This document shows, one piece after another, positions 2,886-51,690 of a DNA stretch of 64,000 nucleotides. Position numbers and translations under genes: made by a program. The DNA lies in the IMG/VR virus record IMGVR_UViG_2859564202_000001. One strand, given 5' to 3'. Within the stretch, counting starts at the first letter, position 1, and each line of letters opens with the position of its first letter. The DNA comes from a virus (taxonomy: Duplodnaviria; Caudoviricetes). The notes under the pieces were generated by a model. That model made no database searches. It was not told the DNA's origin and saw only the letters and a list, made by a program, of their open reading frames with translations.

Positions 2886-3305
2886 ATGATCACTCGTCAC
2901 GATGTTCCCTACATCATCGCTCCGCCTGTCTACGCGATCTTTGCGAGCCTGATGACCACGCCACCATGGTTTTATCGAACCACCTACACCATTGACGGTT
3001 TCGATTTTAAGATCAGCTGGGTCTACACCATCACCATCTACATCAGCCTCATGATCCTCATTATCGGGTTCTACCAAGCCAATATGCGCAAAGCGTGCCC
3101 TTATGAGGAAGATCCTTTGGTCGATATTTGGCACAAGGTGTGGAGCACTGCACTCTTTATCCTACCTATCGTTTTATCCATCGCGGTGTACTCACTGATC
3201 ACACAGCGCGGGTTTGACTGGTATGTCATGGTGTTTATTCTCCCTGTAGGCTTGATGATCGCTTATGGATTCTTCAAGCCCTGTGATTGCGACAAACACC
3301 GTTAA
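2886..3305 (+). CDS. Small multi-pass membrane protein
   Basis: About 4 hydrophobic segments; AGGAGAG RBS before ATG 2886. Confidence 0.7.
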   Translation: MITRHDVPYIIAPPVYAIFASLMTTPPWFYRTTYTIDGFDFKISWVYTITIYISLMILIIGFYQANMRKACPYEEDPLVDIWHKVWSTALFILPIVLSIAVYSLITQRGFDWYVMVFILPVGLMIAYGFFKPCDCDKHR

Positions 3306-3376
3306 GGTATACTTGTCCAAGACTTTCCCCACCGGCAGCCCAATAAGGGCTGCGCCTAACTTAAAACACGACACAT

Positions 3377-3417
3377 AGAACCCCTCCCCGGCCACACGCC
3401 CCAGAGGGGTTCTTTTT
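3377..3417 (+). terminator. Rho-independent terminator
   Basis: AGAACCCCTC...GAGGGGTTCT followed by a T run. Confidence 0.65.
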
Positions 3418-3482
3418 CATCCTTTTTAAAATATACTTATATGTATTAATCCCCTCTTTGTGCAGCATAGGAGACTACTGCT

Positions 3483-5324
3483 ATGACCTCAACAACCCAA
3501 CCTGGCACAACACCTGAGCTCAGCGCAGACACTCATTCTGAGCCCTGGGATGTCGTCATCGAAAACACCCTTGAACCTTTTCAAAAAGTCGTTCGTCAAT
3601 TTATTATTGACCGCCCCTATTCCGGCATTTTCCTCACCATGGGTGGCGGCAAAACACTCACTACCCTCTCCGCATTGACCTATATCCAGCCACCTGGACA
3701 CATTCTGGTTGTCGCGCCTCTAAATATCTCTCGACTCACCTGGCCCGAAGAGGTTCGCAAGTGGAATATCCCTGTTAACGCAATCTCGCTGATCACCAAT
3801 GAGCGCGGCACCAAACTCACCCGCGCCAAACGCCTCAAACTCTATGAGGAAACAGCGACCACACCACCAACGCTGTATTACATCACCATTAATCTGCTCG
3901 AAGATATTGTCAATTACTTTGGTGATAGGTGGCCGTTTTGGACAGTCATTATTGATGAGTCACAGACAATCTCTGATATATCCTCCAAGCGCACTAGAGC
4001 GCTCTTTTCTGTGCGACCCTATATCGGCAGACTAATTCTGCTCACCGGAACCCCCAGCGCCAACAAGTTCGACTCCATTTACGCCCAAGTCGCAGTGCTA
4101 GATTATGGTGCCAGCCTGGGTGACAACATCGACGTATTCCGAGCCAGATGGTGTGCGCCCGACATTATTACCGATAAACAAGTGCGTCGCTGGAAGCCGG
4201 CTAACAAGCAGGCTGAAGCAGAGGTGTACCGCACTATTAGCCACCTGGTCATGTCTGCCGTCAACACGGATATTAAGCTGCCACCGCTGCATTTTGTTGA
4301 TCACGAGGTACACATGAGCGACGATGAGCACCGCGACTACGAGCTCTTCAAAAAGGACGCGGTGCTTGCTGCATTGCTCGATATGGCTGAAGAGAATGAG
4401 GGTGGCGAAGGCGCTGATGACACTGACGCTGCTGATTCAGCGACAACGACCCCACCTGCGTCATCACAGCCAACAAACCCTGCCATCCCCGCTGGACTGC
4501 TTCAGGCAATACAACAAACCCAGGACACCAATGGTCGCGCCATCGCGCCTGTGACCACAGCTGAACTTGATCATTTTGATGATCTGCCAGTACAGCGCCA
4601 AGAAGATCTTGGCACCTTAGTTGTTATCTCTGCTGTTCACGCAGCGACTCTGCGCATGAAACTGCTGCAATACGCAGGTGGTGCTGTCTATGTCGATCCA
4701 GAAGATTCTGCGCAGTCCCAAGACCTGGATGCCAGCACTGCACGTGATGTTATCGACGCTACCAACACCGCCATGACCACTATTACCTCTCGCCCCACCA
4801 TGATTGTGCACCTGCACAAGGTGCGAAAAGTCATTGAGATTTTATGCAACCCTGCACTCGGCGGTGAACCTGTCAATATCGACCAGGACGAGACCGGAAA
4901 ACAGGTGTACACACCCACCCCAACGCTTGTCGCCTATCGCTTTATCTCTGACAAAGAAATCCTGCTTCATTACCTGGCGCAGGCGGGTGTGCAGGGTGTG
5001 GAGGTTTTTGACGGGTCGCCTGACATGCTGAGCCGTTGGAATGCGGGACGCATTCCGGTCTTACTTTTGCAGCCTGCGTCTGCTGGTCACGGCTTGAATT
5101 TCCAGCACGGCGGGCATCGCTTGGTGTGGTACAACCTGCCCGATAATAACGAGCATTATATGCAAGCGAATGCTCGTCTACATCGCATTGGTCAAAAGAA
5201 TCCCGTGACCATTCACCGCATTATTACCGCTGATACTTATGATGCGAATATGCCGGCGATTCTGGCCGGTAAAGCAAATAGACAGCAACGTCTCATCGAC
5301 GCCGTGCGCCGTGATCCAGTCTAA
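3483..5324 (+). CDS. SNF2-family helicase
   Basis: TMGGGKT Walker A, IIDESQ, LLTGTP, SAGHGLNFQ, QANARLHRIGQ motifs. Confidence 0.9.
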   Translation: MTSTTQPGTTPELSADTHSEPWDVVIENTLEPFQKVVRQFIIDRPYSGIFLTMGGGKTLTTLSALTYIQPPGHILVVAPLNISRLTWPEEVRKWNIPVNAISLITNERGTKLTRAKRLKLYEETATTPPTLYYITINLLEDIVNYFGDRWPFWTVIIDESQTISDISSKRTRALFSVRPYIGRLILLTGTPSANKFDSIYAQVAVLDYGASLGDNIDVFRARWCAPDIITDKQVRRWKPANKQAEAEVYRTISHLVMSAVNTDIKLPPLHFVDHEVHMSDDEHRDYELFKKDAVLAALLDMAEENEGGEGADDTDAADSATTTPPASSQPTNPAIPAGLLQAIQQTQDTNGRAIAPVTTAELDHFDDLPVQRQEDLGTLVVISAVHAATLRMKLLQYAGGAVYVDPEDSAQSQDLDASTARDVIDATNTAMTTITSRPTMIVHLHKVRKVIEILCNPALGGEPVNIDQDETGKQVYTPTPTLVAYRFISDKEILLHYLAQAGVQGVEVFDGSPDMLSRWNAGRIPVLLLQPASAGHGLNFQHGGHRLVWYNLPDNNEHYMQANARLHRIGQKNPVTIHRIITADTYDANMPAILAGKANRQQRLIDAVRRDPV

Positions 5325-42431: not shown

Positions 42432-43955
42432 TTAAGCATCTTCAATACGCCTAAAGGCTCGCGCGACTTCTTTATCAAAGTGACCCTGGGCGAGATCACG
42501 CCAATGCGGAAGCTCCACCAGCATGATGCGGAATGCTCGGGTGGTCTTATATTTACCCATAGCAGACAGCGGATCATCCTCTGTGCCAGATAGAGCTTCT
42601 TCACCCTCAGAGTAGACACGCGACTGCTCCACTCCTGCTTGCGCGCGCATAAGTGCAATATCTTCCTGCGACAACGCCTCAATCAACACAGTGCCATCGA
42701 CAGCATTAACCAAGCCGTTGTTAGCAGTCACCCGGAAATTCGGATCTTGAGCAAAAGCGTGCAGGCTCTCATCATAGGCTGCAGTGAGCTCATCTTCGAG
42801 TGAGTCCTGCAGGATGTGGCCGAATTGATCAGCCAGCATATCTCGTGACACCTTGCCTTCGGCATAACGCTTCAACCGCATGTCAGCGAGCTTATGTTCT
42901 GCATTCTCCTGATCGTGAATGAATTCATCATTGACCTCTGCTTCTTCAGACAGAGATTTCTTTTTCACCTTCGTACCAGTAGCCACGGGGAAGCCCTGAG
43001 CACTGTCTTCGAACTCATCATCAAAAACGTCATATTCAGACTCCATGAAATCACGAGCATTCATGACAGACTCATCCCCCTCGTCATAATCCGGCGTGTC
43101 ATCGTACTCATCTTTCGCGATCATCGTGTCCACGATGTCCATGATTTCTGCTGAATACACATCCATATCCAGGCGTGCAATATCAGAGTCATCGAGCCCA
43201 GTCGCCTTTTTATAAATATCGACGGCACGCTGAGTACGAATCGACTGCGCCATGCGCTTTTCCAGCATCGCCATAAAGTCCGGTGCATTTTGATTCACAT
43301 CGAATTCATTAGCGCTCGACAGTGTTGGAATAGTCTGCAACGAGTATTCGCGACCCGGTTGGATAATCTGGTTAGCAAACAACATGAACGACATCGGCCA
43401 AATCGTTTCATTGCGTGACCACACCGGATACTGACCCGCACGGAAGACGATGGCGTTCTGCGATGGCAGAGTATTTAGGTCATTATAAGACACCACCGGC
43501 TCTTTTTCAGTTGCAGACGTGTACGACACTTTACCCTCGGTGCGCATAACTAACTGTGCCAAGTCACGGGTTACGGTCTTTGAATTTCTGCGTACAACAT
43601 GTCGCTCACCTGACCAATCCACCAACGTCTTAATCATTGTTTCGTCTGTGGATTTCAAGAAGATAATGTTGGACGTGTTGTGGGTCGGGATCATATCGTC
43701 AGTGATGTAGAGATGGTCACGGTCGGCAATGCTGATGCATTGCACGGTATCGCGGCGGGAGAATTCTACAGAGACGATTTCATTGTCTGCTGCGGGCACG
43801 TCGAGACGTGCCCGATCTGCTGGATCGAAGTTGTCGAGGATCTCTGGCGCCCGCGCTGCGACACCAGGCAGAAACACCTTATCCCCTCGTGCCAGCATCG
43901 CTTTAAGCTCTGCCGTGGTGACGATTCTGCGCTCGCCAGCAAGTGTTTGCGTCAT
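42432..43955 (-). CDS. virD4: Split-intein C-half (93 aa) fused to the C-terminal 414 aa of a VirD4/TraG coupling protein
   Basis: VQCISIADRDHLYITDDMIPTHN|T intein blocks F/G, then TSNIIFLKSTD...SG; own GAAGGGG RBS. Confidence 0.88.
   Translation of the reverse strand: MTQTLAGERRIVTTAELKAMLARGDKVFLPGVAARAPEILDNFDPADRARLDVPAADNEIVSVEFSRRDTVQCISIADRDHLYITDDMIPTHNTSNIIFLKSTDETMIKTLVDWSGERHVVRRNSKTVTRDLAQLVMRTEGKVSYTSATEKEPVVSYNDLNTLPSQNAIVFRAGQYPVWSRNETIWPMSFMLFANQIIQPGREYSLQTIPTLSSANEFDVNQNAPDFMAMLEKRMAQSIRTQRAVDIYKKATGLDDSDIARLDMDVYSAEIMDIVDTMIAKDEYDDTPDYDEGDESVMNARDFMESEYDVFDDEFEDSAQGFPVATGTKVKKKSLSEEAEVNDEFIHDQENAEHKLADMRLKRYAEGKVSRDMLADQFGHILQDSLEDELTAAYDESLHAFAQDPNFRVTANNGLVNAVDGTVLIEALSQEDIALMRAQAGVEQSRVYSEGEEALSGTEDDPLSAMGKYKTTRAFRIMLVELPHWRDLAQGHFDKEVARAFRRIEDA
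43677..43955 (-). other. IntC: C-terminal half of a class-3 split intein
   Basis: Block F Cys (VQCI), terminal T-H-N, +1 Thr. Confidence 0.88.
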
Positions 43956-45194: not shown

Positions 45195-47015
45195 ATGCCA
45201 ACACTGCTTATTGACACCCATCCGCATCTTGCAGCGCAACTTCTTGACCCTGGTTTAGGTGAACTTCTTACAGCCGGTTCCAACAAAAAAGTGCAGTGGC
45301 AGTGCCCTAAGCACTCCAATCACATCTGGACGGCCTCGGTTAATAACCGCACCAATGCAAAGAACCCGCGCTGCCCCTATTGTGCCGGAACACGAGTGTT
45401 GGCAGGTTTTAATGATCTCGCCACCACTCACCCGCATCTTGCTGTACAGCTGGTTGACCAAGATATTGCCGTCACCATTTCCGCTGGTTCTGGCAAAAGA
45501 CAACTGTGGCAGTGTGTAGTAAACCCAAAACACCAGTGGTTGGCTACGCCAAATAATCGCACGAGTACTAAATCTGCGAGTTCTGGTTGCCCCTACTGTG
45601 CCAACCGAGCGGTATTAGTCGGTGACAATGACTTTGCAACAACCTACCCCGAACTTGCAGCGCAATTAGTAGATCAATCTGCAGCGACAACCTTTACAGC
45701 CGGCCACAACAAGCCTGTTGAGTGGATCTGTTGCAAGCATGAACCACCATTTATCTGGAAAACCTCACCAATTTTGCGTGTACGACAGAACACCCAGTGC
45801 CCTGTGTGCTCAGAGCGAACTGTGGCGCCGGCGCTTAATGATCTTGCAACCACTCACCCTAAACTTGCCGAGCAAATTGCAGATCCTCAACCAAGTGGTG
45901 TGAGCGCCGCGGCCATTATCCCCACCATTAGCAGGGGTTCCCATACGCAATTAACATGGCAATGTTCTAAAAATCATGACCACCAATGGGTCGCCACAGT
46001 AAAGGATCGTGTTCGCGGAACAGACTGCCCCACCTGCGCAAATACAGGAACTTCACGCAAAGAGGCTGAACTTATTGAGGTCATCCGTGCATTATTCCCA
46101 AACACTGATGTCCAGCAAGGTGCGCTCATTAATGGACGTACCGGTAATCAAGGTGCATCGCCGTCAACCGATGTACTCATACCGTCCAAAAATCTCGCTA
46201 TCGAGTTCAACGGCCTGTACTGGCACTCTGAGCTTTTCATCAAAGATAAGCATTATCATGCGAACAAATCAGCTCTCGCAGAACAAGCCGGTGTGCAGCT
46301 CATTCATGTGTGGGAGGACGACTGGAATCTTCGCCGCGACATTGTGATCCGCATGATCGCACACAAGCTTCATGCAACCCATAACCTCAGTGCTGTTTTG
46401 CCTACCGAAACTACTGACTCACGTGTGGCAACCACCGCTTTCGCCCGTACACTCACACTGTCGGTGGTCTCTGGTTCACGCGCTGCTGCATTCTTGAACA
46501 GCAACCATATTCAGGGTGCTGTCTCGGCCACTAAGCACTTTGCCCTGTGCGACAACAACGACGATATTCGAGCACTCCTGTCGGTGCGCTCACCAAAAAA
46601 CAATGCCCGCATGTATCGCAAAAAAGGCACATGGGAAATCCAGCGCTATGCGACACTCGGTAACGTCCCTGGCGGTTTTACTAGGCTGCTGAAGTTTGCC
46701 GAGCACACACTCAACGAACACAGCACAGTACTCAAGCAATGGATCTCATTTTCTGCTGCTGATGTCTCTGACGGCAGCCTGTATCGAACTGCCGGTTTTA
46801 CCGCCGAGCAACAGCTTGCACCGGATTATCGCTATGTCGGTGGCGCAACAGGTTGGCGCCGAACACCCAAAGAAAGCTTCCAGCGCAAACGCTTTAGAGA
46901 CGACCCAGCGTTGCTATGGAACGAATCTTGGACAGAGCACGAAGCAGCGCTCAACAACGAGCTCTACAGAATCTACGATGCCGGCAAAACCCGGTGGGTT
47001 AAAAATGTTGCTTGA
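45195..47015 (+). CDS. Free-standing zinc-ribbon-repeat endonuclease (putative homing endonuclease)
   Basis: Four HPxLAxQ...WxC...W...CPxC repeats, then TDVLIPSKNLAIEFNGLYWHS...IHVWEDDW Vsr/PD-(D/E)xK-like domain and an extra C-terminal domain. TAGAAT 6 nt before the ATG suggests a leaderless transcript. Confidence 0.75.
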   Translation: MPTLLIDTHPHLAAQLLDPGLGELLTAGSNKKVQWQCPKHSNHIWTASVNNRTNAKNPRCPYCAGTRVLAGFNDLATTHPHLAVQLVDQDIAVTISAGSGKRQLWQCVVNPKHQWLATPNNRTSTKSASSGCPYCANRAVLVGDNDFATTYPELAAQLVDQSAATTFTAGHNKPVEWICCKHEPPFIWKTSPILRVRQNTQCPVCSERTVAPALNDLATTHPKLAEQIADPQPSGVSAAAIIPTISRGSHTQLTWQCSKNHDHQWVATVKDRVRGTDCPTCANTGTSRKEAELIEVIRALFPNTDVQQGALINGRTGNQGASPSTDVLIPSKNLAIEFNGLYWHSELFIKDKHYHANKSALAEQAGVQLIHVWEDDWNLRRDIVIRMIAHKLHATHNLSAVLPTETTDSRVATTAFARTLTLSVVSGSRAAAFLNSNHIQGAVSATKHFALCDNNDDIRALLSVRSPKNNARMYRKKGTWEIQRYATLGNVPGGFTRLLKFAEHTLNEHSTVLKQWISFSAADVSDGSLYRTAGFTAEQQLAPDYRYVGGATGWRRTPKESFQRKRFRDDPALLWNESWTEHEAALNNELYRIYDAGKTRWVKNVA

Positions 47016-47649: not shown

Positions 47650-47969
47650 TTATGCTGCGCTTGCTGCATCCTGCTCGGCAGGAACCACAATCACTTCCCA
47701 CAAATGCTCATCACAAGCCTCTGTGGTTGAGCCATCTTTACGTGTCACAGTAAATACATCTCGCTCACCCTGTGGGAACACACCGTCAATCTCGCTGACT
47801 GTCCCCTTTGGGGTAAGCACCTTCATACCTGCTTCTGCTTCGCCCATCGTGACCCATCCATCAGGTGTTGCGATCTTCGCCGTCAACGGCTGCGCATTAC
47901 CTTGGAGAATCTTGTCTGAGGCTTCGCCATACACCTGAGTCAACTGCTGCAGTGTCTGCAGAATCAATG
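47650..47969 (-). CDS. virD4: VirD4/TraG exon 3 followed by split-intein N-half
   Basis: (T)LILQTLQQLTQVYGEASDKILQGN continues exon 2 in frame after intron removal, then AQPL... intein block A. Confidence 0.88.
47653..47895 (-). other. IntN: 81-aa N-terminal half of a class-3 split intein
   Basis: Block A AQPLTAKIATPDGWVTMG; block B DGSTTEACDEHLW. Confidence 0.88.
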
Positions 47970-50033
47970 ATGTCAATAGGTAACGCTTTGATCTTATCTC
48001 CACGTTTTCCCCTGACCCACACCGTACGTGCGACTTTCACCGCATACGGCGCTCCATCACTAGAGTTCTTATCCCTCCGGTGACTTGTGACCATTACTCC
48101 TGCTCTCATTACAAGAGCTATCAACGCTTCGATCACTACTTTTCAACACTCGTTCGACTGCTTATTATTCTTCGTCAGTCTACGCAAAACCGCTATCCAA
48201 AAACTTCTTCCTGAAACGGACCACTTACTAATAACTCGCCAATTGATTCTGCTGTTCTCGCCGTATATGGGATCTCCAAAAGTGTTAGCTCTCGGACTAC
48301 AGTAAACGCTCGTTTTCGTCTGTCGTGCTCTTGTTGGATCGCGAAACGACTCTCTCCACCGAAATACTCAACTGGTCTAAAATGCTGCTCACCTTGGCAC
48401 TCAATCAACAACCAGGGCTCGGTATCCTTGAAAACCAAAAAATCATAACTCAGTGGTCCTCCACCAACCCCCACCAAACCATCGAAAGTCTTTTGAGATT
48501 CAAACTGAAAATCATTCTTTAAAAGAAAGTCCCTGACATGTGACTCTTGGATTGATCCGTGCAAACAACCACACGATTGGCTAATACCCTGCCTCAACAT
48601 AATCCCAGCAACAGCATTTTCGGAGCCGCACATACATCGGCACAACCACATTTGAGACCGCCCACCACCAGGGTAAAACCTGTCATCCGTACGAGACAGC
48701 ACAGTCCACTGGTTAAATACCTTGCCAGTCAAATCTTCAAAAACAGCAGTTTCTCGTCGCTGTTCTATGCGATAGCACCCGCACGATATTGACCGACCCC
48801 GCAACAAAGACTGTTCCAATACGTCCCTTGTCGCTCCACACTCGCACTCGCAAAACCACGCCTTAGATAAGCGACCCCACTGCAGCACGTCCTCACCACG
48901 TCGAACAACAGACCATCGACCAAATGTGGAACCAACTAAATCCCTATTCTTTGAAAGCGACTCGATTTTTAGACAACCACACGATTTCGAATCACCATTC
49001 TTCAGTGACCCCGCAGCAAGATCTTTCTCAACACCGCAAGTACATCTGCAATGCCACATGGTGGTTTTCCTTCCTGTGGAGGAAACCCTACTTTCCGCTC
49101 GATCTATGACAGTCCATCGCCCAAACACCTGACCTATGAGATCCTGTAAGTTCTTACCCTGCATCCTTTTACGAACAGTCTCATAACGACGACAACCGCA
49201 CGATGCGGTTTCATCAGCGTTCTTAAATCTAGAGGCCGGTGCATCATACTCCCTGCCACAATCACAAAGACATTGATACCGAACCTCAATCTTGCCACTT
49301 TTGTTTACACGATCGTTAGTGCGATAAAGAACTTTTATATGCCCGAAAGTTTTACCGGATAAATCATTAAACTTTCGTCGCCGATGTTGTTGCGGTGCTC
49401 GTATTGTCATCTCAAACTACTTTCAAATATATACCTTTATTTGTATATATTACCCCTTTTAATTAATTAAACAAGCTTTCAGCCTTGATAACAAGTGGTC
49501 CATTTCACTATAAAGTTATTAAATATTGGCAGCTATTTCACGCCGAATATCTTTCCCAGTTCCGTTTCACCTATCCGTTACATGCTGCCCTTAGGTGCTC
49601 ACTCTGACCCTGCTCGCCTCGGATGTGCCTGTAACACATCAGGGAGGTTCATAAATTCAAGTCTTACTTGTCCCCTACGAGCACTAACGCATTTCTACGC
49701 CGAACAATTCAAGAGCCGTACATTCGCAAGTTCGTCAGTTATCTCACTCGATAACATTCTCACCCTAGGCAGTTTCTGGACACCCGGCATATCAGCGGCA
49801 CATCAGATCACTCTGACGCTTTCGTAGCTACTGTGATCAAATCCCAGCACCTTTACGACCGACCTTCTGCCGACTCTAACGGGCTTTATACAGTTCTATT
49901 TTGTTCAAACCGCATACCGTAGCTTGGTGTGCACATTTCAGGGCGTTACTCCGTCATTCTGTGTATCAATGAAACAGTTTCTTGCAACTTTAAGCTGCAA
50001 GAGCGTAGTTTTTCGCTACGCAACTGGTCGCAC
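47970..50033 (-). mobile_element. Group II intron (2064 nt, class-B-like) without reverse transcriptase
   Basis: 5' GTGCG at 50033; domain V GCGCCGTATGCGGTGAAAGTCGCACGTACGGTGT (48052-48019); domain VI with bulged A 47977; 3' AT end. Removal gives in-frame TTT A|CA TTG. Confidence 0.92.
48193..49410 (-). CDS. Group II intron-encoded putative endonuclease
   Basis: Four DLxGxxFGxxxV...CxCxCG...SCGC repeats plus YDFL...LIECQGEQHF...HDRRK...LLEIPY Vsr-like domain; no YADD or other RT motifs. Confidence 0.8.
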   Translation of the reverse strand: MTIRAPQQHRRRKFNDLSGKTFGHIKVLYRTNDRVNKSGKIEVRYQCLCDCGREYDAPASRFKNADETASCGCRRYETVRKRMQGKNLQDLIGQVFGRWTVIDRAESRVSSTGRKTTMWHCRCTCGVEKDLAAGSLKNGDSKSCGCLKIESLSKNRDLVGSTFGRWSVVRRGEDVLQWGRLSKAWFCECECGATRDVLEQSLLRGRSISCGCYRIEQRRETAVFEDLTGKVFNQWTVLSRTDDRFYPGGGRSQMWLCRCMCGSENAVAGIMLRQGISQSCGCLHGSIQESHVRDFLLKNDFQFESQKTFDGLVGVGGGPLSYDFLVFKDTEPWLLIECQGEQHFRPVEYFGGESRFAIQQEHDRRKRAFTVVRELTLLEIPYTARTAESIGELLVSGPFQEEVFG

Positions 50034-51690
50034 TAAATTGTTGTTCTTGTCCCAGACCGATCGAGAGCATGGTTTCAAATCCCGCAATACCATGACCCTC
50101 ACTCTGAAGGTTTCCCAACTCGTCCAACATGAAACGAGTCTTATAATCCGGCTTCTGATTCTCACGCGTCATATACGAGGAATCGAAGTTCAGATCCACA
50201 AGCTGTTTGATGAGAATCAAAATCAACTTCGCATATTTCATAAGATGCGGAGGCGTTACGAAGAACACTGCCTTAGGCTTCTCCGAATACCGCACATTCA
50301 GAGCCGACACCGCATCAACCATCGCATCAACCTGCTTGATCATGTCATGACCCGGCATATTGATCTGTTCCTGCGTGAGTTGGTCAAGATTCAGTTTCTT
50401 CGTCTTAAACTGCACATGACCTGGAACAAAGTCACCAGCATCGTTTTTCACCAGCTCGATCAGCAGACCATTCTTAATGATCTTCTCATCGGTCACCGGA
50501 TCAGTAATAAACGCACGGCCTTTAAGGTTCGTTTGGTAGCCCTTGGTGAACTTGAAGTACAGAGTCTTGATCAACGTGCCAGAAGTACCATTGAGAATCC
50601 GCAAACGCAGGTACGCAGTATTACTCGGGAACGAGTCTTTAATATAGAACCGCGCCCAACCCTCAACCGACAGCGTGTCATCATGAACAAAATTCTTACC
50701 CAACGGCTTGGTGAACTTGGCGTCACTATACGCATCCCATTTCACCTGTGATCCAACCAGGTTGTAGCGCTTCACATAGGGGGCCGCAAAACGAACACCC
50801 ATGCGCCGTGGAAACGACAATCCGGCCAAGTCAACGTTCTGACTTAGTGTGCCTGAGGTTAACGTTGAAATTGTGGGGTCTGTAAAGAAGGACATCGCTG
50901 TAATCGCGATACCGTAGACCGACGCCATCATTTTTTCAGCGCCACCCATTGCTTTCAGGGCCTTATCTGCGTTGCCCACCAGAGTACGAACACTGGACTT
51001 TGGCAGACCGTCTGTGGCACTAAAGAACAAGGTGAGCATGTCTTTTTCTTTCTCACCCTCCCACAGAAACATTTCGTTCTCTTCGGCCTCTGTCACAGCA
51101 TCCTGGAACATCATGGCTGCATTTTCATCAGTCTCTAAGTTACCGAATTCACCGGCACGTGCACGTTCATTGAGTCGCTCAACGGGATTCTTCAGCTTCT
51201 TTGCCGAAAGCTGCACAAAGAGCTGGTAGCAGTTGTAGAGCGTGACCTTACCCCACATCTGATCAATACGTGTATCAAGCACCTTGGCATCCCAATTCTC
51301 AGCTGCAGCCTGCTTGCGCATCTCGCGCTCCTCTTCCAAATAGAAGTCGATAAGACCATAGGCTGCACGCTTGAAGGCATTGTTGGCCGCATTCGGCCAT
51401 ACCGGATCATCGGCACCGTCCACCGGAAAGAACACCTCTGCGATATTTTCCACATAGGTTGCGCACTTCATCCCGTTACCTTCGCGAGCTGCTTCGGCTG
51501 CTAATCCCAACGGGTTATAAATATCAGTTTTCAGGTTGTTAATCAGGTTAAACTGAACAACCTGAAAACCGCGCTTAGACATCCGAACATAATTTTTCTT
51601 CAGCAACTCGCCTTTAGGGTCGTTGATACACATATTGTTCGGTCGAGTTTCCCTCGTCCACATGTCGATCATTGGCTCAATGTAGGTCTG
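50034..51690 (-). CDS. virD4: VirD4/TraG exon 2 (5' boundary 51690 or 51687)
   Basis: QTYIEPMIDMW...INDPKGEL...YNPL...Walker B FMLDELGNL...GLGQEQQF. Confidence 0.9.

What the first reader, a model, noticed from the sequence alone, without database searches (positions are those of the whole stretch)
47970..50033. Bacterial group II intron with no reverse transcriptase and a nuclease ORF in domain II
Seen: GUGCG...AU ends, DV with CGC triad, DVI with bulged A. Candidate EBS2 TTGTTC (49707-49702) and EBS1 TGAATT (49659-49654) match the 5' exon end GAACAA-C-AATTTA. The ORF is enclosed by CACTTGTT (49497-49490)/AACGAGTG (48154-48147), followed by a DIII-like stem (48136-48087) and a 27-nt ORF-less DIV (48083-48057). 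The ORF therefore sits in DII and encodes Cys-repeat plus Vsr-like nuclease domains, not an RT/maturase. Established: bacterial group II introns normally carry RT in DIV; endonuclease-bearing ones are mainly known from fungal mitochondria. Inference: it moves by DNA-break homing and splices without its own maturase.
Basis: partly seen in the sequence, partly recalled or inferred. Interest (0 to 1): 0.88.

Follow-up and report, generated by a model that had tools for sequence, protein, structure and literature searches.

The report
Endonuclease-carrying group II intron, ORF in domain II
A real, actively spliced group II intron interrupts a conjugation/DNA-pump (VirD4/TraG-type) gene of a prophage-like element and carries a DNA-cutting homing endonuclease in RNA domain II instead of the usual reverse transcriptase in domain IV. 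It is a new structural variant of a kind first reported in giant phages in 2025.

Summary
Rfam finds a group II intron on the minus strand at 50033-47970. An intron-less allele (99% identical protein) fixes both boundaries to the base. RNA-seq reads from one run join 50034 to 47969 exactly.

The 405-aa ORF is not an RT. It has four Cys-rich repeats and a C-terminal domain whose predicted fold best matches Vsr (Z 10.4) and the EDxHD homing endonuclease I-Bth0305I (Z 10.0). The complete genome holds no RT or maturase domain and no other group II intron.

The ORF does lie in domain II. J2/3, DIII and a 29-nt DIV follow it and align with those of related introns. Seven related introns at the same coupling-protein codon show a different DII base: P-a and P-b, 91/91 canonical pairs, 8 of 13 compensatory.

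Endonuclease-bearing, RT-less group II introns were published in 2025 (Merk, Jones and Eddy) for phages AR9, PBS1 and MarsHill. There I find the ORF in DIV, so this is a new variant, not a new kind. Homing by DNA break and the way splicing is assisted are inferred. This scan met the same intron before on another genome (e1-2842704).

The parts
50041..50046 (-). IBS2 (GAACAA) in the 5' exon
   Evidence: Perfect 6-bp complement to EBS2. IBS2/EBS2 also track each other in relatives L113 and L127.
50034..50039 (-). IBS1 (AAUUUA), the last 6 nt of the 5' exon. The 5' splice site lies after 50034.
   Evidence: Pairs 6/6 with EBS1, and the pairing covaries in 8 of 8 family members. The intron-less allele L112 and the RNA joint confirm the site.
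47970..50033 (-). Group II intron, 2064 nt, GUGCG...AU
   Evidence: Rfam RF02004 plus RF00029. It is exactly absent from intron-less allele L112. RNA reads skip exactly this stretch.
49773..49982 (-). Domain I core, matching RF02004 over its full length (1-201)
   Evidence: 133.1 bits, E 5e-29.
49702..49707 (-). EBS2 (UUGUUC)
49654..49659 (-). EBS1 (UGAAUU)
   Evidence: It is also a perfect Watson-Crick match to the intron-less allele's AAUUCA.
48145..49551 (-). Domain II. It holds basal helix P-a (49551-49544 / 48152-48145), helix P-b (49543-49535 / 48190-48182), hairpin P-c (48180-48156), and the ORF in the loop closed by P-b.
   Evidence: RNAalifold on 8 introns predicts it. P-a plus P-b give 91/91 canonical cells, and 8 of 13 pairs show compensatory changes. 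Slid controls reach 27-44%, and 0 of 2000 shuffles reach the observed count.
49497..49507 (-). 5' strand of an inner DII helix (UGAAAUGGACC). It pairs with GGUCCGUUUCA at 48222-48212, inside the 3' end of the ORF.
   Evidence: 11 contiguous pairs are seen in the sequence. Equivalent helices with different sequence occur in L113, L116, L123 and L121. This was read by eye, with no statistical control.
48193..49410 (-). Homing endonuclease ORF (405 aa, P0001): four Cys-rich repeats plus a Vsr/EDxHD-like nuclease domain (residues ~283-405)
   Evidence: PHROG matches to phage homing-endonuclease families, with no Pfam RT or other hit. The AF2 model has pLDDT 91. The C-terminal domain model has pLDDT 95.6, with Z 10.4 to Vsr 1cw0 and Z 10.0 to I-Bth0305I 3r3p. 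Invariant residues are D323, E337, Q339, H343, D363 and K366.
48137..48144 (-). J2/3 linker (GAAAAGUA)
   Evidence: Conserved as UGAAAAGU in all 8 family members. It aligns with J2/3 of RT-bearing relatives (LPJP1, Efs 1-1-1), where it sits upstream of the ORF.
48087..48136 (-). Domain III
   Evidence: Homologous in sequence to DIII of the MarsHill, AR9 and c-st introns. Both of its helices show compensatory changes.
48056..48084 (-). Domain IV, a 29-nt hairpin without an ORF
   Evidence: The stem covaries, with 5 pair types at one position. It occupies the place where AR9 and MarsHill carry their ORF-bearing DIV.
48019..48052 (-). Domain V (CGC catalytic triad, GAAA loop)
   Evidence: RF00029 alignment.
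47973..48015 (-). Domain VI, with the bulged branch-point A at 47977
   Evidence: RF00029 alignment. The helix covaries and the A is unpaired in all 8 members.
47896..47969 (-). 3' exon (start of coupling-protein exon 2: T-LILQTLQQLTQVYGEASDKILQGN). The first base, C, is IBS3.
   Evidence: Joining the exons gives the reading ...GLGQEQQF-T-LILQTLQQL..., identical to the uninterrupted protein P0003.

Best explanation
This is a functional group IIB-like self-splicing intron in the VirD4/TraG-type coupling-protein gene of a prophage-like element.

The intron has lost, or never had, an RT/maturase. Its cargo is a homing endonuclease with four Cys-rich (probably zinc-binding) DNA-recognition repeats and a Vsr/EDxHD-type PD-(D/E)xK nuclease domain. 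The gene lies in the terminal loop of an extended domain II. DIII, a tiny DIV, DV and DVI follow it.

The RNA folds into the usual six-domain ribozyme. It recognises the 5' exon through EBS1/EBS2 and is removed from the transcript at 50034/47969, which restores the conserved ...GQEQQF-T-LILQTLQQL... motif.

Shown: the ribozyme, the exact boundaries, the spliced RNA, the DII position, the nuclease fold, and the absence of any RT or maturase gene in the genome.

Inferred: the element spreads at the DNA level. The endonuclease would cut intron-less coupling-protein alleles near the insertion site, and repair from an intron-bearing copy would copy the intron in, as for group I introns. Splicing would be RNA-catalysed without a dedicated maturase, though possibly helped by host factors or the endonuclease.
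For: - **Ribozyme.** Rfam RF02004 at 133 bits and RF00029 at 62 bits.
- **Boundaries.** An intron-less allele with a 99% identical protein aligns without gaps across the junction.
- **Splicing.** RNA-seq raw reads of run X23 show a joint 47969->50034 that skips 2064 nt with GU..AU ends, in 3 reads with 3 starts and no shared letters at the joint.
- **No RT or maturase.** A six-frame search of the complete genome finds no PF00078 or PF08388. It finds only this one RF00029/RF02004 hit, and the control genomes respond.
- **Same intron elsewhere.** Seven other elements, including Virgibacillus sp. AGTR, carry a 40-62% identical endonuclease in the same intron at the same codon. Four of these loci were checked with Rfam and confirmed. 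The other three were placed by motif, alignment and EBS-IBS pairing.
- **Exon recognition.** EBS1-IBS1 pairs 6/6 in all 8 copies, with perfect covariation at one position.
- **DII position.** P-a and P-b give 91/91 canonical cells and 8 of 13 compensatory pairs, and 0 of 2000 shuffles reach this. J2/3, DIII, DIV, DV and DVI are all conserved and covarying downstream of the ORF.
- **Nuclease fold.** The C-terminal domain model has pLDDT 95.6, with Z 10.4 to Vsr and Z 10.0 to I-Bth0305I. Thirteen of 24 homologues hit DUF2726, a PD-(D/E)xK family by my recollection of Pfam clans.
- **Conservation.** The candidate catalytic residues (D323, E337, Q339, H343, D363, K366) are invariant in 42 homologues.
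- **Precedent.** HEG-based homing of RT-less group II introns has been proposed for AR9, PBS1 and MarsHill (PMC12350094).
Against: - The spliced junction rests on only 3 reads from one run. Coverage there is low and similar in both mate orientations, so splicing efficiency is unknown.
- No lariat or branch evidence is available.
- Endonuclease activity, its target site and homing are untested.
- The identity profile between the intron-plus and intron-less alleles (exon 1 97.4%, exon 2 93%) shows no clear co-conversion tract.
- The start codon in this copy lacks a strong Shine-Dalgarno, and the promoter scan found no internal promoter on the minus strand.
- DII structure comes from 8 related sequences aligned by me. 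One of them (L118) had to be paired by eye for P-a.
Confidence: 0.85

Rival explanations
1. The ORF lies in domain IV as in canonical bacterial group II introns. The stems after it would then be only the 3' part of DIV.
For: The distance from the RF02004 match to the ORF start (363 nt) resembles that in relatives with a DIV ORF: AR9 329 nt, LPJP1 369 nt. An earlier first-stage note on an identical intron in another genome read it as a DIV ORF.
Against: The J2/3 linker (UGAAAAGU) and a DIII homologous in sequence to the DIII of MarsHill, AR9 and c-st lie after the ORF here. In those relatives both lie before it. Between the end of DI and the ORF there is only the 5' half of a helix whose covarying partners lie after the ORF. 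A separate 29-nt covarying DIV hairpin sits between DIII and DV.
Confidence: 0.04
2. The intron is a decaying relic. The coupling-protein gene is a pseudogene, and the 'spliced' reads come from contaminating intron-less DNA or from library artefacts.
For: The same gene is also interrupted by a putative group I intron and a putative split intein (first-stage notes; Hint-like matches). The prophage region is poorly expressed, at a depth of about 4-20. Only 3 junction reads were seen.
Against: The only intron-less allele found differs at 15 of 120 positions around the junction, so its reads would fail the 95% identity filter used. The joint shows no microhomology ('both' = 0), unlike template switching. 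All catalytic RNA elements and EBS-IBS pairings are intact and covary across 8 copies. The exon reading frames are open and 99% conserved. The endonuclease's invariant residues are intact.
Confidence: 0.05
3. The endonuclease is more than a passenger. It also acts as the splicing cofactor (maturase) of this RT-less intron, as some LAGLIDADG proteins do for group I introns.
For: The intron splices in a genome with no RT or maturase. The ORF-ribozyme association is old and conserved in 8 elements across two phyla. The ORF's 3' end is woven into DII helices, and in L118 into J2/3 and DIII.
Against: There is no direct evidence. ORF-less relatives of the same ribozyme class exist, such as phage c-st. 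Overlap of coding and structural RNA is expected from compaction alone.
Confidence: 0.12

Closest known systems
HEG-bearing group IIB introns of jumbo phages AR9/PBS1 and MarsHill (Merk, Jones and Eddy, NAR 2025, PMC12350094)
   Same: The ribozyme class is the same: RF02004 plus RF00029, with DV/DVI 83-85% identical. Neither has an RT. The ORF combines several Zn-type repeats with a C-terminal Vsr/EDxHD-like nuclease, and the AR9 nuclease domain is 28% identical over 137 aa. In both cases the host gene also carries a group I intron with a related HEG.
   Different: In AR9 and MarsHill, DII, J2/3 and DIII precede the ORF, and the ORF is enclosed by the DIV stem. Here the ORF is in DII and DIV is a 29-nt hairpin. 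The DNA-binding repeats differ: here they follow a CxCxCG...SCGC pattern with no Pfam match, whereas the phage ones are CapR/DUF4379-like. The host here is a coupling-protein gene of an integrated element in a bacterial chromosome, not a virion RNA polymerase gene of a lytic phage.
LAGLIDADG-encoding group II introns (fungal/algal mitochondria, Thiotrichaceae 16S rRNA; PMC13190283)
   Same: Both are group II ribozymes that carry a DNA homing endonuclease instead of an RT. In both, the ORF can sit outside DIV.
   Different: The nuclease family differs (LAGLIDADG against Vsr/EDxHD-like). Reported ORF positions there are DIV, DIII and DIB, not DII. Most hosts there are organellar rRNA or cox1 genes.
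Canonical mobile bacterial group II introns (e.g. Ll.LtrB in a relaxase gene)
   Same: The six-domain ribozyme, EBS/IBS exon recognition and bulged branch A are shared. Both reside in a conjugation-related gene of a mobile element.
   Different: There is no RT/maturase ORF in DIV here, and none anywhere in the genome. Mobility is inferred to be by DNA break and repair rather than retrohoming.
EDxHD homing endonucleases of 'fractured genes' and I-Bth0305I (Dassa et al. 2009, PMC2677866; PDB 3R3P)
   Same: The nuclease domain has the same predicted fold (Z 10.0, 97 of 98 residues aligned). It is associated with self-splicing elements and split inteins, and a related HEG lies beside the putative split intein 1 kb downstream in this same gene.
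   Different: Sequence similarity is undetectable by HMMER against the PDB. The conserved motif here is D...ExQGxxH...D..K. The N-terminal repeat array is different.

Membership tests
Group II intron (Rfam RF02004 + RF00029; IIB-like) | Covariance-model match to the domain I core and to DV/DVI above the curated thresholds | tested here: met
   133.1 bits against a gathering score of 34.5, and 62 bits against 40.
Group II intron (Rfam RF02004 + RF00029; IIB-like) | 5' GUGYG and 3' AY ends, a DV catalytic triad, and a bulged A in DVI 7-8 nt from the 3' end | tested here: met
   GUGCG...AU, a CGC triad, and a bulged A at 47977, 8 nt from the end.
Group II intron (Rfam RF02004 + RF00029; IIB-like) | EBS1-IBS1 and EBS2-IBS2 pairing with the 5' exon | tested here: met
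   6/6 pairs for each. EBS1-IBS1 covaries in 8 of 8 related introns.
Group II intron (Rfam RF02004 + RF00029; IIB-like) | Excision from RNA at the predicted junction | tested here: met
   RNA-seq joint 47969->50034, 3 reads, one run. The junction equals the intron-less allele.
Group II intron (Rfam RF02004 + RF00029; IIB-like) | Branching (lariat formation) at the DVI adenosine | not testable with these tools
   No branch-spanning reads were listed. Lariat RT-PCR is needed.
Canonical mobile bacterial group II intron (retroelement) | An intron-encoded RT with maturase (X) domain in DIV | tested here: not met
   The ORF has no RT match. DIV is a 29-nt hairpin. The whole genome has no PF00078 or PF08388.
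RT-less, HEG-bearing phage group II introns (Merk et al. 2025) | A group II ribozyme whose only ORF is a multi-repeat protein with a C-terminal EDxHD/Vsr-like nuclease | tested here: met
RT-less, HEG-bearing phage group II introns (Merk et al. 2025) | N-terminal repeats related to the CapR / DUF4379 / DUF723 families | tested here: not met
   No Pfam match to P0001 or to single repeats even at E <= 10. The neighbouring HEG at 45195-47015 does match DUF4379.
RT-less, HEG-bearing phage group II introns (Merk et al. 2025) | ORF position in the ribozyme (DIV in AR9 and MarsHill by my reading; the authors do not state it in the main text) | tested here: not met
   Here the ORF is in DII. In AR9 and MarsHill it is in DIV.
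Vsr / EDxHD-type PD-(D/E)xK nuclease domain | The restriction-endonuclease-like fold shared with Vsr and I-Bth0305I | tested here: met
   The AF2 domain model has pLDDT 95.6. VIA-align gives Z 10.4 (rmsd 2.8, 106 aligned) to 1cw0 and Z 10.0 (97 aligned) to 3r3p.
Vsr / EDxHD-type PD-(D/E)xK nuclease domain | The catalytic E-D-x-H-D signature in register with I-Bth0305I | tested here: inconclusive
   Invariant D323, E337, Q339, H343, D363 and K366 were found. No residue-by-residue superposition was obtained, and HMMER finds no PDB relative.
LAGLIDADG-encoding group II introns | A LAGLIDADG endonuclease ORF | tested here: not met
   No LAGLIDADG family match in Pfam or PHROGs.

The most novel reading that the evidence does not exclude
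This could be a conserved lineage of RT-free bacterial group II introns that has turned domain II into a dedicated cargo bay for a homing-endonuclease gene. The endonuclease, or translation through the ORF-embedded DII/DIII helices, would take part in or gate splicing. That would make it a protein-assisted or translation-coupled splicing switch, evolved independently of the RT/maturase solution.
Probability: 0.12. Interest if true: 0.78.

Novelty: new variant of a known kind. Interest (0 to 1): 0.58.

Why it matters
Group II introns are usually treated as retroelements whose ribozyme and RT/maturase co-evolve, with the ORF in DIV. This family shows that the same ribozyme class can live as a pure DNA-homing element, like a group I intron. 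It has taken up the endonuclease gene at least twice, in different domains: DIV in the jumbo phages, DII here.

It also splices in a cell that has no RT or maturase gene at all. If the host is C. glutamicum, as the evidence suggests, it is a genetically tractable, non-pathogenic organism. Maturase-independent in vivo splicing, homing by DNA break, and the tolerance of DII to a 1.3-kb insert could then all be tested directly.

The family's strict target, one codon of a conserved coupling-protein motif in elements of Actinomycetota and Bacillota, also gives a natural set of target-site and EBS variants.

Tried and rejected
1. **Unconstrained two-fragment folding** of the ORF flanks mispaired DII with DIII and was discarded. 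The constrained fold first suggested P-a and P-b. A duplex-energy shuffle test was uninformative (168 of 500 shuffles reached the observed energy).
A third option, UUCGGC/GUCGAA, had zero pairing probability.
3. **A DIII DNA pattern in IMG/VR** gave one chance hit in coding DNA with no Rfam match.
4. **A search of 400 genomes of the same family** with the intron DNA found only short DV matches, so no close copy was found in those searched.
5. **Loci of distant endonuclease relatives** from IMG/VR and GTDB (L003-L090) hold no DV motif, and 7 of them gave no Rfam hit. Most relatives are therefore not in group II introns.
6. **The exon-1 protein in IMG/VR** matched no pattern.
7. **Runs X21, X22 and X24** laid no reads and so give no test. 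No joint was listed for the upstream putative group I intron.
8. **Sequence searches of the nuclease domain against the PDB** (phmmer and profile) gave only chance hits. Foldseek gave only weak rows for the whole model and for the domain.
9. **The promoter scan** found no sigma-70-like site on the minus strand upstream of the ORF in this copy.
10. **Three 'Bacteriophage sp.' scaffolds** with similar DV are ordinary. L132 and L133 have RT ORFs in DIV, and L134 is ORF-less.
11. **Literature searches** found no paper on a group II intron in CGP3 and no report of a homing-endonuclease ORF in DII. The held library is incomplete.
Full report

On the minus strand, Rfam finds a full-length match to group-II-D1D4-5 (RF02004, 133.1 bits) at 49982-49773. 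It also finds a full-length match to the DV/DVI model (RF00029, 62 bits) at 48054-47970. The sequence starts GUGCG at 50033 and ends AU at 47970.

The flanking frames belong to one VirD4/TraG-type coupling protein (PF02534). A search with the exon-1 protein found a 641-aa protein, P0003, that is 99% identical and reads straight through the junction as ...GLGQEQQF-T-LILQTLQQLTQVYG.... Its contig, L112, aligns with the window on both sides, and exactly 50033-47970 is missing. The base-by-base comparison has no gap and no ambiguity.

Raw RNA-seq reads of one public run (X23) contain a joint from 47969 to 50034. It skips 2064 nt, has ends AT..AC on the plus strand (GU..AU on the RNA strand), and is seen in 3 reads with 3 different starts. 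It has 64 nt on the shorter side and no shared letters at the joint.

The intron-less allele differs at 15 of 120 positions around the junction. Its reads would therefore fail the 95% identity filter, so the joint comes from this allele's own RNA. The three other runs laid nothing and are no test.

**2. What is the ORF?**

The 405-aa ORF (49410-48193, P0001) has no Pfam hit and no RT similarity. It matches phage homing-endonuclease families in PHROGs: phrog_374, phrog_559, phrog_9084 and phrog_7140 'intron encoded nuclease'.

An alignment of 42 homologues shows four repeats with invariant CxCxCG...SCGC cysteines. It also shows a C-terminal block with invariant D323, E337, Q339, G340, H343, D363 and K366.

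AlphaFold2 gives a confident model, with pLDDT 91 for the whole protein and 95.6 for residues 283-405. An exhaustive structural comparison of the C-terminal domain ranks Vsr endonuclease first (1cw0, Z 10.4, rmsd 2.8, 106 residues). The catalytic domain of the EDxHD homing endonuclease I-Bth0305I comes second (3r3p, Z 10.0, 97 of 98 residues).

Thirteen of 24 homologues weakly match DUF2726. A few match TnsA_N, HSDR_N and DUF559. By my recollection of Pfam clans, all of these are PD-(D/E)xK families.

The nuclease domain is 28% identical to that of the AR9 group II intron endonuclease. The repeats have no Pfam relative even at E 10. They therefore differ from the DUF4379/CapR-like repeats of the phage proteins and of the neighbouring endonuclease at 45195-47015.

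**3. Where does the ORF sit in the ribozyme?**

I compared the intron with relatives of the same Rfam class. These were the ORF-less intron of phage c-st, the RT-bearing introns of phage LPJP1 and of 'Efs 1-1-1', and the endonuclease-bearing introns of AR9 and MarsHill.

In all of these relatives the order after domain I is:
- a DII hairpin
- a J2/3 linker (GAAAGU or GAAGUCAGCA)
- DIII
- AGU
- a DIV stem that encloses the ORF, or is a small hairpin in c-st
- AUGGA
- DV

In AR9 (L002), DII is 2929-2967 and DIII is 2977-3023. The DIV stem 3029-3037/3994-4002 encloses ORF 3095-4003. In MarsHill (L091), DII is 2906-2927 and DIII is 2937-2983, and DIV 2989-2995/3999-4005 encloses the start of ORF 3066-4046.

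In the window the order is different. The linker GAAAAGUA (48144-48137), a DIII clearly homologous to the MarsHill DIII (48136-48087), and a 29-nt DIV hairpin (48084-48056) all lie after the ORF. The ORF therefore sits between DI and J2/3, which is domain II.

**4. A family, and the real DII helices.**

The endonuclease has more than 900 database relatives. I fetched the DNA around eight of the closest, at 37-62% identity. Seven of them lie in the same arrangement, between two halves of a coupling-protein gene: L113, L116 (Virgibacillus sp. AGTR), L118, L121, L123, L125 and L127. The eighth (P0129, loci L129/L130) has no group II features.

Rfam confirms RF02004 plus RF00029 in the four loci I scanned: L113, L116, L117 (a second contig for the L116 protein) and L118. 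The other three were placed by motif, alignment and EBS-IBS pairing. All eight introns, counting the window's, are inserted after the same codon position (GGNCARGANCARCARUUYA|C).

In every copy EBS1 pairs 6/6 with its own IBS1, with perfect covariation at the A/G position. In most copies the 5-6 best-pairing positions for EBS2 also track IBS2; L121 and L125 reach only 4 of 6.

I joined the 5' and 3' flanks of the ORF for the eight introns, aligned them, and ran RNAalifold. It predicts:
- **P-a**, a basal DII helix: intron 483-490/1882-1889, window 49551-49544/48152-48145. It starts right after DI and ends right before J2/3.
- **P-b**, a second helix: 491-499/1844-1852, window 49543-49535/48190-48182. 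It closes the ORF-bearing loop two nucleotides after the stop codon.
- **P-c**, a conserved 3' hairpin: window 48180-48156.

P-a and P-b together have 91 of 91 canonical cells, and 8 of 13 pairs show compensatory double changes. Partners slid by 1-3 columns reach only 27-44%, and none of 2000 column shuffles reaches the observed count. DIII, DIV and DVI also covary.

It is fully complementary only in this copy and is not conserved elsewhere, so it is a chance match.

Further in, UGAAAUGGACC (49507-49497) pairs with GGUCCGUUUCA inside the last codons of the ORF (48222-48212). Equivalent helices with other sequences occur in the relatives (read by eye). In L118 the ORF even runs through J2/3 and DIII.

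**5. How it most likely works.**

Shown:
- The ribozyme is intact.
- Its exon-binding sites fit the exon.
- The RNA is spliced at the predicted junction.
- The complete single-contig genome has no RT (PF00078) or maturase (PF08388) domain in any frame.
- The genome has no second group II intron.

Splicing therefore does not depend on a group II maturase. Whether it is unaided or helped by host proteins or by the endonuclease is open.

Inferred: mobility works by cleavage of the intron-less allele followed by recombinational repair, as proposed for the phage cases. The support is the endonuclease family, its conserved catalytic residues, the strict conservation of the insertion site, and the existence of natural intron-less alleles. 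No cleavage, cut site or co-conversion tract has been shown.

In four relatives a TGGTATAAT-like extended -10 element precedes the ORF inside the DII loop (by eye). This suggests that the endonuclease can be transcribed on its own. In this copy the promoter scan found nothing on that strand.

**6. Comparison with what is known.**

Merk, Jones and Eddy (NAR 2025, PMC12350094) reported group II introns in phages. Four of them carry endonucleases made of CapR/DUF4379-like repeats plus an EDxHD/Vsr-like domain instead of an RT. So the central idea of the finding is already published.

What differs here:
- The ORF is in DII, whereas I find it in DIV in AR9 and MarsHill.
- The repeat type is different.
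- The host is a coupling-protein gene of an integrated element, and the family spans at least Actinomycetota and Bacillota.
- There is direct RNA evidence of splicing in an RT-free genome.

For LAGLIDADG-bearing group II introns the reported ORF positions are DIV, DIII and DIB (PMC13190283). I found no report of a homing-endonuclease ORF in DII and no paper on a group II intron in this prophage. The library searched is incomplete.

The same scan met an identical intron on another genome (e1-2842704). There it was read as a DIV ORF, and the follow-up filed it as a HEG-bearing group II intron of a C. glutamicum prophage. I agree with that filing, but not with the DIV placement.

**7. Verdict.**

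The intron is real, active and well defined. I rate it a new structural variant of a recently described kind, with moderate to good interest because it appears to sit in a tractable organism.

The identification of the genome as C. glutamicum ATCC 13032 and of the region as CGP3 is my inference. It rests on three things:
- The assembly is 3,309,401 bp in a single contig.
- The Rfam control genome of that species rings for RF02004 and RF00029.

Noticed in passing
window 47895-47650 and 45195-47015 (+), continuing to ~43677: Right after exon 2's ...ILQGN the frame continues as AQPLTAKIATPDGW...DEHLW. This matches the intein-containing regions of phage proteins and then runs into stops. A 606-aa DUF4379 + nuclease homing endonuclease lies on the opposite strand, and the C-terminal coupling-protein part resumes near 43955. 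It looks like a split intein with a free-standing HEG (a 'fractured gene' arrangement), as another first-stage note says.
   Followed up: partly
window 53062-51797 (HEG ORF 53002-51794, minus strand): The third endonuclease (402 aa, DUF7487) lies in the gap between coupling-protein pieces that another note reads as a group I intron. Contig L112 lacks exactly this ~1.27-kb ORF segment but keeps the ~0.4-kb remainder. It is thus a natural ORF-less version of that intervening sequence. No RNA joint for it was listed.
   Followed up: partly
L116:1-1718 (Virgibacillus sp. AGTR, GCA_016919725.2): The same coupling-protein gene carries a second group II intron further upstream, this one with a classical RT ORF (RVT_1) and its own DV/DVI (RF00029 at 1616-1718). 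An RT-bearing and an HEG-bearing group II intron therefore coexist in one gene.
   Followed up: no
L118:4640-4720: In this family member the endonuclease ORF reads through J2/3 and the whole of DIII, with the stop codon in J3/4. The same nucleotides therefore encode protein and catalytic-core RNA structure.
   Followed up: partly
L109 (IMGVR_UViG_3300012940_000057), reverse strand ~1990-2300: A DV identical to the window's is preceded within ~30 nt by sequence resembling the end of domain I (..GCACCUAAG..). There seems to be no room for DII-DIV, so this may be a drastically reduced group II intron.
   Followed up: no
L121, L123, L125, L127: ~40-70 nt upstream of the endonuclease start codons: TGGTATAAT- or TGTATAAT-like extended -10 elements sit inside the DII loop upstream of the ORF, followed by good Shine-Dalgarno sequences. 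The window's copy has only GGGTAATAT and a weak ribosome-binding site (by eye).
   Followed up: partly
window 48964: RNA reads of run X23 show G>A (plus strand) in 4 of 32 reads inside the endonuclease ORF. This may be a strain difference or heterogeneity.
   Followed up: no
window 49375-48635 versus 49622-49376: In run X23 the read depth over the 5' two-thirds of the endonuclease ORF (up to ~38 summed) is several times that over the ribozyme just upstream (~6). Read starts also pile up at 49395. This is compatible with a separate transcript for the ORF, but depth is low and similar in both mate orientations.
   Followed up: no
L134 (MT839876.1) ~1700-2010: An ORF-less group II intron of the same DV type interrupts what looks like another coupling-protein gene at a different site, after ...QAQSQLKALYKDNPVR.
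   Followed up: no
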